Shown here piece by piece: positions 37,907-41,973 of a stretch of DNA of 64,000 nucleotides. The notes under the pieces were generated by a model. That model made no database searches and was not told the DNA's origin. It saw only the letters and a list, made by a program, of their open reading frames with translations. The stretch is from Candidatus Yanofskybacteria bacterium. GTDB lineage: Bacteria > Patescibacteriota > Minisyncoccia > 2-02-FULL-40-12 > IGHO2-01-FULL-4-A. The DNA lies in NCBI GenBank assembly GCA_016185545.1, contig JACPNJ010000005.1:4549-68548 (forward strand). Direction: 5' to 3'. Positions within the stretch are counted from its first letter, which is position 1. The number at the start of each line of letters is the position of its first letter. A program made the position numbers and the translations under genes.

Positions 37907-38494
37907 TTGAAAATATCCGGGGCTATTATGAACTTTGATAACTTATCTAGTGAGGAATTAAAAAAATTACTCACCATGGGTCGAACATCCGGTAAAAGAA
38001 TGGCTTTTGAATTTTGGCTCAAGCACATAGAACTAATCGCTCCCAGGGAAACTGGCATAGGCAAAGACCAGCAGCATTACACGGCAAGATTCTTAACACG
38101 GTTTTCTCTGGTTTCAACCACACATTCAATGTTCCACTTTCCTACTTTCATGAGTTTGGCGCAAATTTATGACGAATTCGTGCAGGATATTGAAAACCAG
38201 TATTCACCGGAACCCATGGAAATAGCCGGTTACCAAACTTTACTGCTTGGCGGGTTTTATCTGAAAGCCGCAAGTAAACATTACAACATGGAAGACATAC
38301 GAAAAATGGGCGAATTATTTTTCACCCGCGGAGCAATCGGCAAAAGAAAATCCGTAATCAAAAAAATGGCTCATAATTTTAGCCGATGGCAAAATACGCT
38401 TTGTTATCTTGAATGGTATTTAAGAAATGAAAGATTAGTCATTCAAAAAGCAGAAAAACCCGACGAGCCCCTCATCAAAATCATCCCCCGCTAG
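37907..38494 (+). CDS. hypothetical protein adjacent to the DGR
   Basis: ORF only; its stop overlaps the RT stop by 4 bp (convergent). Confidence 0.35.
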   Translation: MKISGAIMNFDNLSSEELKKLLTMGRTSGKRMAFEFWLKHIELIAPRETGIGKDQQHYTARFLTRFSLVSTTHSMFHFPTFMSLAQIYDEFVQDIENQYSPEPMEIAGYQTLLLGGFYLKAASKHYNMEDIRKMGELFFTRGAIGKRKSVIKKMAHNFSRWQNTLCYLEWYLRNERLVIQKAEKPDEPLIKIIPR

Positions 38495-39501
38495 GGGGAT
38501 TTATATTTTAAAATTTCGGCTTTTAGTTCGTTGGAATTTCCGTGGCTCAAAAGGCCTAGATACGATTCTATTGCCGCAATGTCAGGATTTGATTTAAGTT
38601 TTTTTAACATTCTTCTCTTTGTTGTTGTTCTCAATATTCTGTGGTCTGGAAAATTCACCCACCCCAGAAAATCAACACCCGAATTAATGGTTTTTATGAA
38701 AATTTTACCGGGATGTAATTCTAGTTTAAGATTTTCGGATAAAAAAATCTGAATAGGGTTGATTATACCTTTAAGCCAGGCTTTGTAGGGTGAAATTATT
38801 ACAAAGTCGTCTGAATATCTGACATAGTATTTAGCCTTGAGTTTGTGCTTAACAAACTGGTCAAACTTGTTCATATAGATATTTACGAAAAGCTGTGATG
38901 TTAAGTTACCAAGCGGCAAGCCAACGCCTATTTTCTTGGACGAGAAACTTTTAATGATTTGGTTAAGAAGCCACAAAATATCCTTGTCCGGTATGTTCTC
39001 AACCAAAATTTTTTTCAGTACTTCATGGTCAATATTTTTAAAGAATTTCTTGATATCACACTTTAATATCCAACAAGTGCGAGTATTGTTTTTATTGGCT
39101 TTGTGGGCAAAACTCCTGAAACGGTTTATTGCTTTATGAGTTCCTTTGCCGACTCTGCACGAGAATGAATCGGGAATAAACACTCGGTCAAGGAACGGAC
39201 AAAGTTGCCTACAGACGGCATGGTGAATCAAACGGTCCCTTACTGGCGATTTGTGTATTTGCCTTGGTTTGGGGTCATTGATACGAAAAGATTGATATTT
39301 GCCGTGCTTATAAGTTTTGCCCATCAATTCATGGTGAAGTTCGATAATATTGTCCATCAAATTCATACTGAATTTTTGGACATCTTTCTTTTTGCGCTTT
39401 CCTTTCAAAAATTCTTGCCAAGAATGAAGCAGATTGTCTATACTTACAACATCGTAAAAACAAACACAAAAACCACCTTTATGCCCCCCCCCCAACAACA
39501 A
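38491..39501 (-). CDS. diversity-generating retroelement reverse transcriptase
   Basis: N-terminal IDNLLHSWQEFLKGKRKKKDV, SFSCRVGKGTHKAINR, DGR-specific GLPLGNLTSQLFVNIYMN, YVRYSDDFVI (YxDD). The start is ambiguous: TTG in the given frame, or an ATG if the G-tract is 9 long. Confidence 0.85.
   Translation of the reverse strand: MLLGGGHKGGFCVCFYDVVSIDNLLHSWQEFLKGKRKKKDVQKFSMNLMDNIIELHHELMGKTYKHGKYQSFRINDPKPRQIHKSPVRDRLIHHAVCRQLCPFLDRVFIPDSFSCRVGKGTHKAINRFRSFAHKANKNNTRTCWILKCDIKKFFKNIDHEVLKKILVENIPDKDILWLLNQIIKSFSSKKIGVGLPLGNLTSQLFVNIYMNKFDQFVKHKLKAKYYVRYSDDFVIISPYKAWLKGIINPIQIFLSENLKLELHPGKIFIKTINSGVDFLGWVNFPDHRILRTTTKRRMLKKLKSNPDIAAIESYLGLLSHGNSNELKAEILKYKSP
39484..39493. repeat. C10 (+ strand) / G10 homopolymer at the overlapping 5' ends of RT and avd
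   Basis: Read directly from the sequence. A 9-nt tract would give avd an ATG start at 39481 and RT an ATG start at 39517. Confidence 0.9.
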
Positions 39502-39502
39502 T

Positions 39503-39850
39503 TTGTCGATTATTCATGGTTTTATTGAATTATACAAAGTCTGGCAAAAAATATTTCCCCACTTTCCGACCACCTCCAGACACACGCTCGGATACAGAAT
39601 AGATAATCTTCTCGTGGAAATAGCTGAATTATTGTTTCTGGCGCAATTTGCAACCGGCAATCTTAAGTTATCTCTGGTTGAAAAAACATCACAGAAACTA
39701 GATACGATAAAATTCCTGTTAAGGTTGGCTTGGGAAGTTGAATCTATGGAAGAAAAGAAATATATAATTTTGTCTGAATATCTGCAAAACATTGGGAAAC
39801 AACTTGGCGGTTGGATAAAATATATAAGAAAAGAAAACTCTCCGCGTTGA
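39503..39850 (+). CDS. avd: DGR accessory variability determinant (Avd), four-helix-bundle type
   Basis: C-terminal GKQLGGWIKYIRKEN resembles bAvd ..GRILGSWIARVNRK; IKFLLRLAWEVE resembles bAvd LRFWLRFLA; 115 aa. It lies on the strand opposite to RT, TR and the target gene. Confidence 0.7.
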   Translation: MSIIHGFIELYKVWQKIFPHFPTTSRHTLGYRIDNLLVEIAELLFLAQFATGNLKLSLVEKTSQKLDTIKFLLRLAWEVESMEEKKYIILSEYLQNIGKQLGGWIKYIRKENSPR

Positions 39851-39866
39851 GCAGAGAGAAACAGAG

Positions 39867-40007
39867 ATAGTTTCGAGGCAGAACGAACACGAAGCGATAG
39901 TCAGAATCAAAGACGTTGTCGGGATTGCCGTAATACGCGTTCAACCAAGGTTCGCCATCGTTACGATTCACATCGAACACGTTCAGGTTGCCGTCGGAGT
40001 CAGTAAT
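39867..40007 (-). repeat. DGR template repeat (TR), template strand minus
   Basis: Aligns to 40261-40401 at an offset of 394 bp. All 16-17 mismatches are T on the + strand, which is A on the TR coding strand; there are no other mismatches in 133 bp. Confidence 0.85.
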
Positions 40008-40197
40008 GTATGGCATACCGTCTATACCACCACCCCTTGAGTTTTCTCAGGGTTGAATCTAATTTGATATCTAAATCATACCCTAGTACACCACACCAAG
40101 TATGTCTGTTTTTTTTTGAGGCCGCTCAAAGCCTTCTAATTTTGACCGTGAGCATGTCGCCGTATCTATAATATAACTTATTTCCGAAATAAAAAAG

Positions 40198-40230
40198 GGT
40201 CAGTCAATGATAAAAATATTGACCGACCCA
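40198..40230 (-). terminator. hairpin plus U-run downstream of the VR/target gene
   Basis: Minus strand: gggtcggtcaat..attgactgaccc followed by ttttttatttcgg. Confidence 0.5.
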
Positions 40231-40260
40231 GAAACCAAGCAACAAGAATCTGAGAGATCC

Positions 40261-40401
40261 TTACTTGCGAGGCAGAACGAACACGAAGCGATAGACAGAA
40301 ACAAAGACGCTGTCGGGACAGCCGCAAAACGCGCCCAACCAAGGTTCGCCATCGAAACGATTCACAACGAACACGCGCAGGCTGCCGTCGGAGTCAGTAA
40401 G
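40261..40401 (-). repeat. DGR variable repeat (VR) at the 3' end of the target gene
   Basis: See the TR entry. The TR-encoded peptide has Asn (AAY) where the VR peptide has S/R/F/G/C/K, and TR Asp/Tyr codons also vary. Confidence 0.85.
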
Positions 40402-40914
40402 TGGCTCCATGGCAACTACGAGACACTCTCCATCGGGCTGATCCTTGTACTGATCGCGCAGTGCCGGACCAACTTCGTTTGGACAGAGTTGACCGCCGAC
40501 CTCAACTATCCTGGCACAGATGTCATCATACCGGGTACTCTTCTTGAAACCGAGTTCAGCAACCGACATGACACACAAATCCACTTCAATCTCTGCCTGC
40601 GAGATGGAGATTTTGTGGAGAATCTGCTGTGCCCAATCACCGATTCGGGTAGTACCTCCACGCTTCAGGGCACTCGCGTAAGCCTTCGGGGTCTTGTGAA
40701 GGCCCAGTCTGATGGTCCCCCAAACCTTCAGCACTGGCAAAAGCCCAAGAAACTTCTGGAAGACATCTCTGACAGGCAAAGTATTTGACTTGATTGCCCG
40801 AGCCAGGTCTGATAGATACCCGCTGTGCAGTGTGTTCATCTCCTCACCGGAGAGCTTCTGCTGATCCAGCAGATTAAGTGTCTGCTGGGCATGACCAAAA
40901 GTTGCATTGCTCAT
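40261..40914 (-). CDS. DGR target protein (217 aa) with C-terminal variable region
   Basis: AGGAGG RBS; GC content higher than its surroundings; C-terminus ..DGEPWLGAFCGCPDSVFVSVYRFVFVLPRK is VR-encoded; no signal peptide. Confidence 0.8.
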   Translation of the reverse strand: MSNATFGHAQQTLNLLDQQKLSGEEMNTLHSGYLSDLARAIKSNTLPVRDVFQKFLGLLPVLKVWGTIRLGLHKTPKAYASALKRGGTTRIGDWAQQILHKISISQAEIEVDLCVMSVAELGFKKSTRYDDICARIVEVGGQLCPNEVGPALRDQYKDQPDGECLVVAMEPLTDSDGSLRVFVVNRFDGEPWLGAFCGCPDSVFVSVYRFVFVLPRK

Positions 40915-41118
40915 AGTTTCCTCCTATTGAGCGCTATTCCCTTGCGGGATAGCAGAAATTGGCTGCCTGATTGCAGCCCCCAAACTCTTAAATAGATTCG
41001 GGATTGGGGGCTACAATCAGTAAAAATGACATTCAAAAAAACCTTTTATACCTTAATTATACACCCAAAAGCACAGAAAAGTCAATAGCACGAAAAACCT
41101 TGAAAAATAGGGTTAAGT

Positions 41119-41973
41119 TTAAATTTTTCCCACCGATCCAAAGAGCTCCAGATATTTTTTAATCATTCTCTTCATCTCTTCATAAGAGGACTTGAGGTAT
41201 TTGTAGGGCGTGGTTTCTTTGGGTTCTTTTTCAAGTTCTTCATGCAATGTATCATGATAAGCCACGCGGAGCTCGGTGTTAATGTGGACATTGGCGATAC
41301 CGTTTTGTATCGCCATTTTTATTTCTTCAGCCGGTAAGCCCGAAGCACCATGCAGCACAAGCGGCACTACAGGTATGGCTTGAACTATTTTTTTTAGATG
41401 CCCAATGTCTAAATGCTCTTCCTGATTAGTAACGATTCCGTGGATATTGCCGAAAGCTACGGCAAGCCGGTCAACACCAGTGCGCGTGACAAAATCGCGC
41501 GCCTGCTCCGGTTGAGTATAATCCGCCGGACTTATTTCTATTTTCTCCTGAACTTCCGAACTGCCACGCAAATATCCCAATTCTCCCTCAACCTCTAAGT
41601 TAAAGGATTGGGCGTAATCAACAACTTTTTTGGTTAGAACTATGTTTTCTTCGTATGAATGTTTTGATGCATCTATAAGTACTGAATCATAACCGGCATT
41701 AACGACGGCTTTGGTTGTTTCCCAACTTTTATGATGGTCGGCATTCAGGAAAACCGCGTGGCCATTTTTCTGATATGATTTAACCAAAGCCACCGCCTGT
41801 TCCCTGCCGACAAAATCCGCTTCGCTTTCCGAGGTCCCGACCATAATCGGCGATTTCAGCTCCATCGCCGCCTCAACAAACGCCTTGAGCTGGTCTGCCG
41901 TAGAAAAATTAAAATGCCCCAGCGCCCATTTGTCCGCCACCGCTTCATTAAAATACTGTTTTAAGGTTTTCAT
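41119..41973 (-). CDS. fba: class II fructose/tagatose-bisphosphate aldolase
   Basis: VLHGASG, NADHHKS, GELGYL metal-ligand pattern. Confidence 0.85.
   Translation of the reverse strand: MKTLKQYFNEAVADKWALGHFNFSTADQLKAFVEAAMELKSPIMVGTSESEADFVGREQAVALVKSYQKNGHAVFLNADHHKSWETTKAVVNAGYDSVLIDASKHSYEENIVLTKKVVDYAQSFNLEVEGELGYLRGSSEVQEKIEISPADYTQPEQARDFVTRTGVDRLAVAFGNIHGIVTNQEEHLDIGHLKKIVQAIPVVPLVLHGASGLPAEEIKMAIQNGIANVHINTELRVAYHDTLHEELEKEPKETTPYKYLKSSYEEMKRMIKKYLELFGSVGKI

What the first reader, a model, noticed from the sequence alone, without database searches (positions are those of the whole stretch)
38491..40914. Complete diversity-generating retroelement: RT, Avd, TR and a VR-bearing target gene with an adenine-only mutation pattern
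The 38491-39501 ORF has the DGR RT hallmarks (IGNLTSQ-type motif, YxDD, KGKRKKK N-terminus). TR (39867-40007) aligns gap-free to VR (40261-40401) at a 394-bp offset. All 16-17 differences are at positions that are A on the TR coding (minus) strand, and non-A positions are identical across ~133 bp. The TR-encoded peptide is Asn (AAY) rich where the VR peptide is diversified: SDGNLNVFDVNRNDGEPWLNAYYGNPDN versus SDGSLRVFVVNRFDGEPWLGAFCGCPDS. The target is a 217-aa cytoplasmic-looking protein with higher GC than its surroundings, which suggests horizontal acquisition. The VR ends a few codons before the stop and is followed by a hairpin terminator, as in known DGRs.
Basis: partly seen in the sequence, partly recalled or inferred. 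Interest (0 to 1): 0.9.

Follow-up and report, generated by a model that had tools for sequence, protein, structure and literature searches.

The report
Confirmed diversity-generating retroelement in Yanofskybacteria
This is a genuine, complete diversity-generating retroelement of the type already known to be common in tiny "candidate phyla radiation" bacteria; the element itself is ordinary, but it carries a conserved folded RNA and an unstable G-run that the papers I could search do not describe.

Summary
TR (39874-40006, minus strand) and VR (40268-40400) align without gaps over 133 nt. All 15 differences are at TR adenines, all in codon positions 1 or 2 (P about 7e-13). Extending to 137 nt gives 17 differences, still all at adenines.

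The RT matches the Bordetella phage DGR RT far better than group II RTs (E 6e-43 against 2e-17). The Avd passes Pfam bAvd. The 217-aa target models confidently as a C-type-lectin fold. The window comes from a Candidatus Yanofskybacteria MAG.

The layout is target, TR, avd on the opposite strand, RT. This is "architecture B3", reported for 90% of CPR DGRs, so this is a new member of a known kind.

Three diverged copies show homing after they split: 51 of 51 non-A TR differences are mirrored in the cognate VR.

High target GC is family-wide (54% against 42% in flanks, 31 loci).

Found in passing: a roughly 125-nt structured RNA just 5' of TR with strong covariation, present in CPR DGRs with unrelated targets; a duplex bracketing TR; a terminator-like hairpin after TR; and a hypervariable G-run (G10) between avd and RT that the RT reading frame runs through.

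The parts
40261..40914 (-). Target (variable protein) gene, 217 aa. The N-terminal ~60 aa is helical and modelled with low confidence. Residues ~60-217 form a C-type-lectin-fold domain. Coordinates include the stop codon.
40268..40400 (-). Variable repeat (VR), codons ~172-216, ending 4 nt before the stop codon. The last ~24 nt are A-free and identical to the TR, which makes them IMH-like.
40239..40268 (-). Imperfect hairpin spanning the VR end and the stop codon. It occupies the position of the IMH-adjacent inverted repeat of BPP-1. Also here is the junction motif GCAA|GTA, which is conserved across target families.
   Evidence: RNAfold. Recurrent hairpins downstream of the VR in related loci. 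Junction conservation. The function is inferred.
40183..40229 (-). Intrinsic-terminator-like hairpin (12-bp stem, 40197-40229) plus a T-run, ending the target transcript.
   Evidence: The consensus scan missed it because its loop is 9 nt.
39992..40129 (-). Structured RNA domain immediately 5' of the TR. Elements: 5' strand of the long-range duplex (40105-40111); invariant UACUUGGU (40095-40102); closing stem P1 (40085-40096 with 40008-40019); hairpin P2 (40078-40082 with 40066-40070); hairpin P3 (40050-40053 with 40032-40035).
   Evidence: Alignment A3. RNAalifold gives 24 pairs, 18 with compensatory changes. Controls: 96.9% paired against 27-57% when slid, and 0 of 500 shuffles reach the observed values. 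Covariance model R1 hits here at 118 bits, the only hit in the window.
39874..40006 (-). Template repeat (TR): 133 nt, 27 A, Asn-codon rich. The homology can be extended to 39871-40007.
39828..39865 (-). 3' flank of the TR. It holds the 3' strand of the long-range duplex (39859-39865), an 8-bp hairpin (39838-39858) and a U-tract (39828-39837). The hairpin overlaps the avd stop codon on the other strand. It is a candidate Avd-binding stem-loop and/or terminator of the TR RNA.
   Evidence: Best terminator-like site in 38300-41200. The hairpin is present, with compensatory stem changes, in all 32 cassettes. Duplex: 93% paired against 52-63% when slid. Handa et al. 2024 describe Avd-binding stem-loops just 3' of the TR.
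39503..39850 (+). avd (accessory variability determinant), 115 aa, TTG start, on the strand opposite to RT, TR and target.
   Evidence: Pfam bAvd E 4e-12, 47 bits, above the cut-off of 40. NCBIfam DivGenRetAVD E 3e-17, 62.8 bits, below the cut-off of 80.
39484..39493 (-). G10 homopolymer (C10 on the + strand) between the avd and RT start codons. It is the only G or C run of 7 or more in the 64-kb window. Here it lies inside the RT ORF (TTG TTG TTG GGG GGG GGG CAT...) and 8 nt upstream of the avd start.
38491..39501 (-). DGR reverse transcriptase, 336 aa, TTG start, with motifs LGNLTSQ and YSDD.
   Evidence: Pfam RVT_1 E 1.8e-22. Best PDB hit is BPP-1 bRT 8ub7, E 6e-43, over residues 18-303.
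41056..41085 (-). Promoter-like site (TTGACT-18-TATAAT, 11 of 12 matches) upstream of the target gene.
   Evidence: This is a consensus match only.
39415..39444 (+). Promoter-like site (TTGCCA-18-TATACT, 10 of 12 matches) inside the 5' coding region of RT, facing avd.
   Evidence: This is a consensus match only.

Best explanation
This is a chromosomal diversity-generating retroelement of the CPR/Patescibacteria lineage (layout target-TR-(avd)-RT, 'architecture B3') in a Candidatus Yanofskybacteria genome.

Proposed mechanism, by analogy with the Bordetella phage BPP-1 DGR. An RNA containing the TR is bound by the RT-Avd complex and reverse-transcribed. Template adenines are copied unfaithfully. 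The cDNA then replaces the VR at the 3' end of the target gene. This rewrites up to about 12 codons on the surface of a C-type-lectin-fold domain in a small protein that lacks a signal peptide and probably binds a ligand.

Shown here: all the parts are present, the substitution pattern is adenine-only, the target fold is C-type-lectin, and TR-to-VR information transfer happened after related lineages split.

Inferred: the enzymology (by homology to BPP-1); that the conserved 5' RNA domain, the TR-bracketing duplex and the 3' hairpin are the RT/Avd-binding and priming scaffold; and what ligand the target binds, which is unknown.
For: - Adenine-only TR/VR differences: 15 of 15 in 133 nt (P 7e-13); 17 of 17 in 137 nt; all in codon positions 1 or 2.
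- RT: best solved relative is BPP-1 bRT at E 6e-43, against 1.8e-17 for the best group II RT and 8e-17 for chains deposited as retron-type RT. LGNLTSQ and YSDD are read directly.
- Avd: Pfam bAvd above its gathering score.
- Family support: about 40 related genome loci and 34 metagenome loci carry the same cassette with A-only TR/VR mismatches.
- Past activity: among the window, L083 and L089 (87-90% identical cassettes), 23 TR columns differ. At these, 51 of 51 non-A TR bases are mirrored in the cognate VR. The VRs differ at 14-17 of 21-26 shared TR-A sites but at only 1-3 of about 95 non-A sites.
- Layout: B3 is reported for 90% of CPR DGRs (PMC5758913). CPR targets typically lack transmembrane or other recognizable domains (PMC8144416).
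- RNA scaffold: strong covariation, and the domain occurs only next to TRs.
Against: - No read-level data were available, so present-day activity is not shown. Two independent short-read assemblies (L090, L091) are 100% identical to the window, including the VR and the G10 run.
- The RT has no ATG. Its only in-frame start codons are TTG codons upstream of a G10 run, so expression depends on the run length.
- The NCBIfam Avd score is below its curated cut-off, and there is no PDB sequence hit for the Avd.
- I built no RT phylogeny.
- The ligand and the cellular location of the target are unknown.
Confidence: 0.92

Rival explanations
1. The element is a DGR but is currently silent or switched off. 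It could be a relic, or it could be held in an OFF/low state. In that case the VR differences record past activity, not ongoing diversification.
For: Two other assemblies carry an identical VR. The RT has only TTG starts and must be translated through a G10 run. A terminator-like hairpin lies between the TR and RT. The related locus L001 has its RT split into two ORFs.
Against: The RT ORF is intact, with catalytic YSDD and full-length alignment to bRT. TR and VR are identical at all 106 non-A positions, which argues for recent homing. TR and VR have evolved in concert among close lineages. A consensus assembly cannot reveal minority variants.
Confidence: 0.25
2. The TR/VR pair is only a duplicated 3' gene fragment (a pseudogene remnant) that has diverged by ordinary mutation. 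The neighbouring RT is unrelated, for example a group II intron or retron RT.
For: The TR lies inside a 90-aa ORF (39744-40016) that resembles the target's C-terminus. The best NCBIfam hit for the RT is the group II intron RT/maturase model, well below its cut-off.
Against: All 15-17 mismatches are at A (P about 1e-13). The same pattern appears in more than 70 independent cassettes. The RT matches DGR bRT about 25 orders of magnitude better than group II RTs. An Avd gene is adjacent. Rfam gives no group II intron or retron RNA match.
Confidence: 0.01
3. The cassette belongs to a prophage or other mobile element, and the target is a phage receptor-binding protein, as in BPP-1.
For: 87-90% identical cassettes sit in different genomic neighbourhoods: aldolase and a 195-aa ORF here, against ribosomal S30AE/MurB and an 862-aa gene in L083. 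Identity along the cassette is mosaic.
Against: The flanking genes here are housekeeping: a MurC-like ORF and a YchF-like ORF (both assigned by my reading of the translations) and class II aldolase (Pfam). No phage genes were recognised next to the cassette. The target is a 217-aa protein with no tail-fibre features. Roux et al. describe the Patescibacteria DGR clade as almost entirely cell-encoded.
Confidence: 0.05

Closest known systems
CPR/Patescibacteria DGRs: 'architecture B3' TR-(avd)-RT of Wu et al. 2018 (PMC5758913), and DGR clade 2 of Roux et al. 2021 (PMC8144416)
   Same: Same order and orientation: target, TR, avd on the reverse strand, RT. Same host group. The target has no recognizable domain, signal peptide or transmembrane segment. 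The VR is at the C-terminus, and A sites fall in codon positions 1 and 2.
   Different: Nothing essential differs. I could not check whether this target family is one of Wu et al.'s 'UVR1-6' clusters, because no supplementary files are held. The papers I could read do not describe the 5' RNA domain, the TR-bracketing duplex or the G-run.
Bordetella phage BPP-1 DGR (mtd-avd-TR-brt), including the RNP structure of Handa et al. (bioRxiv 10.1101/2023.10.23.563531; PDB 8ub7)
   Same: The RT is homologous (E 6e-43). Both have an Avd, adenine mutagenesis, a C-type-lectin-fold target with a C-terminal VR, an A-free 3' end of TR and VR, and a hairpin after the VR. Both have a stem-loop just 3' of the TR (like the Avd-binding stem-loop Sp3-33) and a duplex between sequences 5' and 3' of the TR (like the avd:Sp 'cPRT Stop' duplex).
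   Different: This element is cellular, not phage-borne. Its avd is inverted and lies between the TR and RT. In BPP-1 the RT-binding RNA lies in a 140-nt spacer 3' of the TR. Here that space is antisense avd, and the conserved structured RNA (125 nt or more) lies 5' of the TR. The upstream strand of the bracketing duplex is about 125 nt from the TR rather than adjacent to it. The target is a small stand-alone protein, not a tail-fibre tip.
C-type-lectin-fold DGR variable proteins (Mtd, TvpA)
   Different: No detectable sequence similarity, and no Pfam FGE-sulfatase or DUF1566 signature. The domain is compact (about 155 aa) and ends in a conserved RFVFVLPRK tail.
Simple-sequence-repeat contingency loci, such as poly-G tracts in Campylobacter or Neisseria genes, and TA repeats in the divergent hifA/hifB promoters of Haemophilus (recalled from my own knowledge, used as a lead only)
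   Same: A G8-G13 run, or (GT)12 or (GA)6 in some relatives, lies in the short gap between two divergent genes. Its length differs between every close pair of relatives examined. In this window it lies inside the RT reading frame.
   Different: Length switching within a population was not tested. In most relatives the run is 12-27 nt upstream of the RT ATG rather than in frame. Lengths cluster at 9-11, which could instead reflect a structural RNA or DNA role.

Membership tests
Diversity-generating retroelement (DGR) | Reverse transcriptase of the DGR clade (motif 4 [I/L]GxxxSQ, YxDD; closer to bRT than to group II or retron RTs) | tested here: met
   LGNLTSQ and YSDD are present in the ORF. 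Best PDB match is bRT 8ub7 at E 6e-43 / 150 bits, against 66 bits for GsI-IIC. I built no phylogenetic tree.
Diversity-generating retroelement (DGR) | TR/VR repeat pair whose differences are confined to TR adenines | tested here: met
   15 of 15 in 133 nt, and 17 of 17 in 137 nt.
Diversity-generating retroelement (DGR) | VR inside a protein-coding target, with variable sites at codon positions 1 and 2 (AAY-rich TR) | tested here: met
   The VR spans codons ~172-216 of a 217-aa ORF. All changes are at codon positions 1 or 2. The TR peptide is Asn-rich.
Diversity-generating retroelement (DGR) | IMH-type 3' boundary and a nearby inverted repeat at the VR that distinguish recipient from donor | tested here: inconclusive
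   The A-free 24-nt 3' end is shared by TR and VR. The flanks then diverge (VR GCAA|GTAAGG, TR GAAA|CTATCT). A hairpin lies at 40239-40268. The junction motif GCAAGT is conserved across target families. Function was not tested.
Diversity-generating retroelement (DGR) | Ongoing or recent mutagenic homing (VR variation tracking the TR) | tested here: met
   Recent homing on an evolutionary scale is shown: 51 of 51 non-A TR polymorphisms are mirrored in the cognate VRs of three lineages, and the VRs differ almost only at TR-A sites. Within-population variation is not testable with these tools, and other assemblies are identical.
Avd (accessory variability determinant, four-helix-bundle) | Match to curated Avd profiles | tested here: met
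   Pfam PF22296 bAvd scores 47 bits, above the cut-off of 40. NCBIfam NF033474 scores 62.8 bits, below the cut-off of 80, so this is a divergent member. I made no structure prediction.
C-type-lectin-fold DGR variable protein | C-type-lectin fold with the VR forming part of the C-terminal domain | tested here: met
CPR DGR architecture B3 (Wu et al. 2018) | Order TR-(avd)-RT with avd on the reverse strand | tested here: met
   Coordinates. The definition and the 90% figure come from PMC5758913. The same layout occurs in about 40 plus about 30 related loci.
Phase-variable simple-sequence-repeat switch | Repeat length varies within a population and switches expression on and off | not testable with these tools
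   Only between-lineage length differences were seen (G7-G13, plus GT and GA repeats). This needs read-level data.

The most novel reading that the evidence does not exclude
CPR-type DGRs may use an RNA scaffold arranged differently from the BPP-1 paradigm. A large structured domain lies 5' of the TR (125 nt or more here, about 240 nt in most relatives). An 8-9-bp duplex clamps it to the TR's 3' flank. A terminator-like hairpin follows.

The invariant loop motif UACUUGG is complementary to the conserved CAAGTA at the VR 3' junction. This suggests RNA-guided priming and/or target-site recognition.

In addition, a hypermutable simple repeat (G10 here) between the divergent avd and RT genes may act as a stochastic ON/OFF switch for the mutator. 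I found neither feature in Rfam 15 or in the searchable literature.
Probability: 0.4. Interest if true: 0.65.

Novelty: new member of a known kind. Interest (0 to 1): 0.4.

Why it matters
The DGR itself adds one more example to a well-described class. DGRs are known to be enriched in CPR bacteria, and this layout is the norm there.

Its value is as a clean, well-supported exemplar. All parts are present. TR and VR are identical at every non-A position. The target has a high-confidence C-type-lectin model. More than 70 relatives are available for comparison.

The comparative set exposes features that bear on open questions. These questions are how DGR RNPs prime cDNA and find their target when avd is inverted, how TR RNA and RT expression are separated, and whether the cell gates a potentially costly mutator with a contingency repeat.

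The structured 5' RNA is supported by covariation and is now captured in a covariance model, so it could be used to find TRs and DGRs directly in metagenomes.

The systematic GC excess of the targets relative to both their hosts and their own RT and avd genes is unexplained.

Tried and rejected
1. Antisense-avd constraint. I asked whether the antisense strand of avd is a constrained part of the DGR RNA. Between the window and L083/L089, avd has dS of 0.04-0.07, against 0.24-0.32 for the target and 0.89 for RT. Other close pairs show no such synonymous conservation: L038-L063 has 0.99 against 0.81, and L053-L068 has 1.49 against 1.17. I rejected this as a general rule. Mosaic recombination is the more likely cause.

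2. High target GC as evidence of recent horizontal acquisition. Rejected, because the excess is family-wide.

3. A second VR or remote target in the window. None found.

4. Known RNA families. Rfam gives nothing but two tRNAs in the window, and only noise across the cassette.

5. Sequence-based function for the target. Pfam, NCBIfam and PDB sequence searches all gave nothing.

6. Exact-protein look-up of the window's Avd. Not on record.

7. Pairing of the 5' domain's G-rich linker (GGUGGUGG) with the TR 3' end or with Sp CCAACCNCC. The duplexfold results were inconsistent and G·U-rich, and the CUUGG:CCAAG pairing is broken by uncompensated synonymous changes. Not supported.

8. Placing the G-run in a sigma-70 promoter spacer for avd or RT. 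I found no convincing hexamers by eye or by scan.

9. Paul et al. 2017 (PMC5436926) and the Wu et al. supplements could not be read. A preprint on genome-language-model mining of ncRNAs was also not held.

10. Literature searches for DGR plus homopolymer, poly-G, phase variation, covariation or upstream structure. These returned nothing relevant beyond Handa et al..


Full report
**Observation**

Sliding the window against itself at an offset of 394 bp shows that 39874-40006 and 40268-40400 are identical except at 15 positions. Each is T on the + strand in the first copy, which is A on the minus (coding) strand. The TR has 27 A in 133 nt, and the probability that 15 random mismatches all hit A is 7e-13. 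All 15 fall in codon positions 1 or 2 of the target frame. The replacement bases are G (7), T (7) and C (1).

Extending by one base at the 5' end and three at the 3' end adds two more A-site mismatches: 137 nt, 17 of 17 at A, P 1.3e-13. The first non-A mismatch is at 39870. A scan of both strands using only the non-A positions finds no other VR in the window.

**Identity of the parts**

- RT (38491-39501, minus strand, 336 aa). It hits Pfam RVT_1. Its best relative among all solved structures is the BPP-1 DGR RT (8ub7), E 6e-43 over residues 18-303. The best group II intron RT scores 1.8e-17, chains deposited as retron-type RT score 8e-17 and weaker, and Drt2 scores weaker still. The ORF carries LGNLTSQ and YSDD.
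- Avd (39503-39850). It lies on the + strand, opposite to everything else. It passes Pfam bAvd (47 bits, cut-off 40). It hits NCBIfam DivGenRetAVD at E 3e-17, below that model's curated cut-off.
- Target (40261-40914, minus strand, 217 aa). It has no Pfam, NCBIfam or PDB sequence match. It has 73 homologues in the large protein database, none with a Pfam domain. Every hit that carries a source name comes from Patescibacteria. The identical sequence is HYX20_02320 of a Candidatus Yanofskybacteria MAG, on a 339-kb contig.
- Target family alignment. It shows a conserved core (residues ~60-175), then a C-terminal ~45 aa that is hypervariable between homologues and ends in a conserved RFVFVLPRK.
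- Target location. It has no hydrophobic N-terminus or transmembrane-like segment. Roux et al. report the same for CPR DGR targets (PMC8144416).

**Layout**

The order is target, TR, avd (reverse strand), RT. [quoted passage not shown] The inverted avd is therefore normal for this host group.

**Relatives and evidence of activity**

A scan of GTDB species-representative genomes with the target alignment found 294 loci. Of the 80 fetched, nearly all are Patescibacteria MAGs. About 40 of the related loci fetched (89 in all) carry the same cassette: target, a gap of roughly 350-500 nt, a TR of about 134 nt, 20-30 nt, avd (reverse) and RT. Each has 10-26 TR/VR mismatches, almost all at TR-A. The other half have no TR, avd or RT within 4 kb.

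Three cassettes are 87-90% identical: the window, L083 and L089. Their TRs differ at 23 columns. At those columns, 51 of 51 non-A TR bases are mirrored in the cognate VR. The VRs differ at 14-17 of 21-26 shared TR-A sites, but at only 1-3 of about 95 non-A sites. This is the signature of TR-to-VR homing after these lineages split.

Present-day activity could not be tested. Two short-read assemblies of the same organism are identical to the window, including the VR.

The target is GC-rich: 52.9% overall, and GC3 of 0.57 against 0.40-0.45 for neighbouring genes. This is a property of the family. In 31 cassettes the non-VR part of the target averages 54% GC, the flanks 42%, and RT and avd 37%. 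It therefore does not indicate recent acquisition here. The cause is unexplained.

Close cassettes do sit in different neighbourhoods and are mosaic in identity, so the cassette does move or recombine.

**RNA elements found by comparison**

1. *A structured domain 5' of the TR.* The ~125 nt immediately 5' of the TR is conserved across 32 cassettes (alignment A3).
   - RNAalifold predicts a 12-bp closing stem whose 3' strand ends 1-2 nt before the TR, plus two hairpins. Of 24 pairs, 18 have compensatory changes.
   - Controls: 96.9% of cells are paired, against 27-57% when partners are slid. The covariation score is 0.60, against 0.17 or less. No shuffle out of 500 reaches the observed values.
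   - A covariance model (R1) hits once per cassette, including loci not used to build it. It hits once in the window (39992-40129, 118 bits). It gives no hit at E ≤ 0.01 in most target loci that lack a detected cassette; the few exceptions (L007, L016, L051) may be undetected cassettes.
   - A pattern scan of JGI metagenomes followed by R1 gave 34 more hits. All but one (L162, a 1-kb contig) are followed by a TR with an upstream VR, and in nearly all the mismatches are almost exclusively at A. Most also show avd (reverse) and RT; the exceptions are mostly short contigs. About 24 have targets that are not detectable homologues of this one.
   - The RNA therefore belongs to the RT/Avd lineage, not to the target family. 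In most relatives, conservation continues about 120 nt further 5'.

2. *A long-range duplex.* An 8-9-bp duplex joins AAAUGAAG, at the 5' edge of the domain, to CUUCAUUU, just 3' of the TR. In the window the pair is ACAGA:UCUGU. It is 93% paired against 52-63% when slid, with 15 doubly changed cells against 0-5. It recalls the "cPRT Stop" duplex of BPP-1 (Handa et al.).

3. *A hairpin after the TR.* A 7-10-bp hairpin plus a U-tract follows in every cassette, with compensatory stem changes. In the window (39858-39838) it is the best terminator-like site of the region, and it overlaps the avd stop codon. It matches Handa et al.'s "Avd-binding stem-loop just downstream of TR". It could also terminate a discrete TR RNA of about 290 nt (40115-39828).

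4. *A junction motif.* The VR 3' junction is GCAA|GT(A/T) across unrelated targets. The TR has GCAA|CUCU. The invariant RNA motif UACUUGG is complementary to CAAGUA. This is a lead for priming or target recognition. Both motifs are invariant, so covariation cannot test it.

**The G-run**

Between the avd and RT start codons lies G10 (39484-39493). It is the only G or C run of 7 or more in the 64 kb.

- A G-run of 7 or more occupies this spot in most family cassettes (about three-quarters). A run of 8 or more is present in 20 of about 26 evaluable metagenome cassettes, with a mode of 10.
- L152 has (GT)12 there, and L044 has (GA)6.
- Length differs between close relatives: window G10, L089 G12, L083 T8G7; L022 G11 against L023 G8. 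It also differs between two cassettes on one contig that have identical flanks (L115, G10 against G8).
- In the window, the only in-frame start codons that keep the conserved N-terminus are TTGs upstream of the run. RT is therefore translated through it.

A contingency switch is an attractive reading, but it is untested. I found no paper on it.

**Verdict**

The finding is correct. It describes a typical CPR DGR: a new member of a known kind. The added interest lies in the RNA scaffold and the repeat, which need experiments or read-level data.

Noticed in passing
window 39992-40129 (-); related loci L001-L089 and L092-L171: A structured RNA domain of about 125 nt lies immediately 5' of the TR: a 12-bp closing stem, two hairpins, and invariant single-stranded motifs UACUUGGU, CGAAUAnGAUaCA, GAGAGUAUUCAA and GGUGGUGGCA. 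Covariation is strong. It is absent from Rfam. It occurs only next to TRs, including in DGRs with unrelated targets. In most relatives conservation extends about 120 nt further 5'.
   Followed up: yes
window 39484-39493 (C10 on the + strand, G10 on the RT strand): This is the only G or C homopolymer of 7 or more in the window. It sits between the divergent avd and RT start codons and inside the RT ORF. The position is conserved in most CPR-type cassettes. Length varies from G7 to G13, and two relatives have (GT)12 or (GA)6 instead. Length differs between every close pair examined. Two contigs (L089, L104) end at the run.
   Followed up: partly
window 40105-40111 with 39859-39865 (-): A long-range duplex brackets the 5' RNA domain plus the TR (AAACAGA:UCUGUUU here, AAAUGAAG:CUUCAUUU in most relatives). 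It shows compensatory changes.
   Followed up: yes
window 39828-39858 (-): A hairpin plus U-tract lies 15 nt after the TR and overlaps the avd stop codon and last codons on the other strand. It has the features of an intrinsic terminator in the TR-to-RT direction. This raises the question of how RT is transcribed.
   Followed up: partly
window 40261-40268 and 40095-40102; loci: The VR 3' junction motif GCAAGT(A/T) is conserved across different target families and is complementary to the invariant RNA motif UACUUG. Five lineages, including this window, have TR CGAAA against VR CGCAA. The VR base is always C, which suggests this position lies outside the copied region.
   Followed up: partly
window 40401-40914, compared with 31 related loci: Target genes are systematically GC-rich: mean 54% in the non-VR part, against 42% in flanks and 37% for their own RT and avd. 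In the window, GC3 is 0.57 against 0.40-0.45 for neighbours. This is unexplained and is not specific to this genome.
   Followed up: partly
window 38599-41061 compared with L083 1472-3957 and L089: Cassettes that are 87-90% identical sit in different genomic contexts, and their identity is mosaic: avd 97% (dS 0.04-0.07), target 88-90%, RT falling from 93% to 65% towards its 3' end. This suggests recombination or cassette mobility.
   Followed up: partly
loci L004-L081: About half of the target-family genes have no TR, avd or RT within 4 kb. They may be orphan or remote targets, or non-diversified paralogues. Some loci (L028, L033, L040, L053, L060) carry tandem paralogues. L018 and L045 have two copies of the 5' RNA domain.
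   Followed up: no
window 38483-38500: A palindromic GC-rich hairpin (ATCCCCCGCTAGGGGGAT) lies exactly where the convergent RT and the 195-aa ORF (37907-38494) end and overlap. The scan flagged it as terminator-like on both strands.
   Followed up: no
L001 6470-7411: In the related Parcubacteria cassette the RT is called as two ORFs (163 and 122 aa). This is either a decayed copy or a sequencing frameshift.
   Followed up: no
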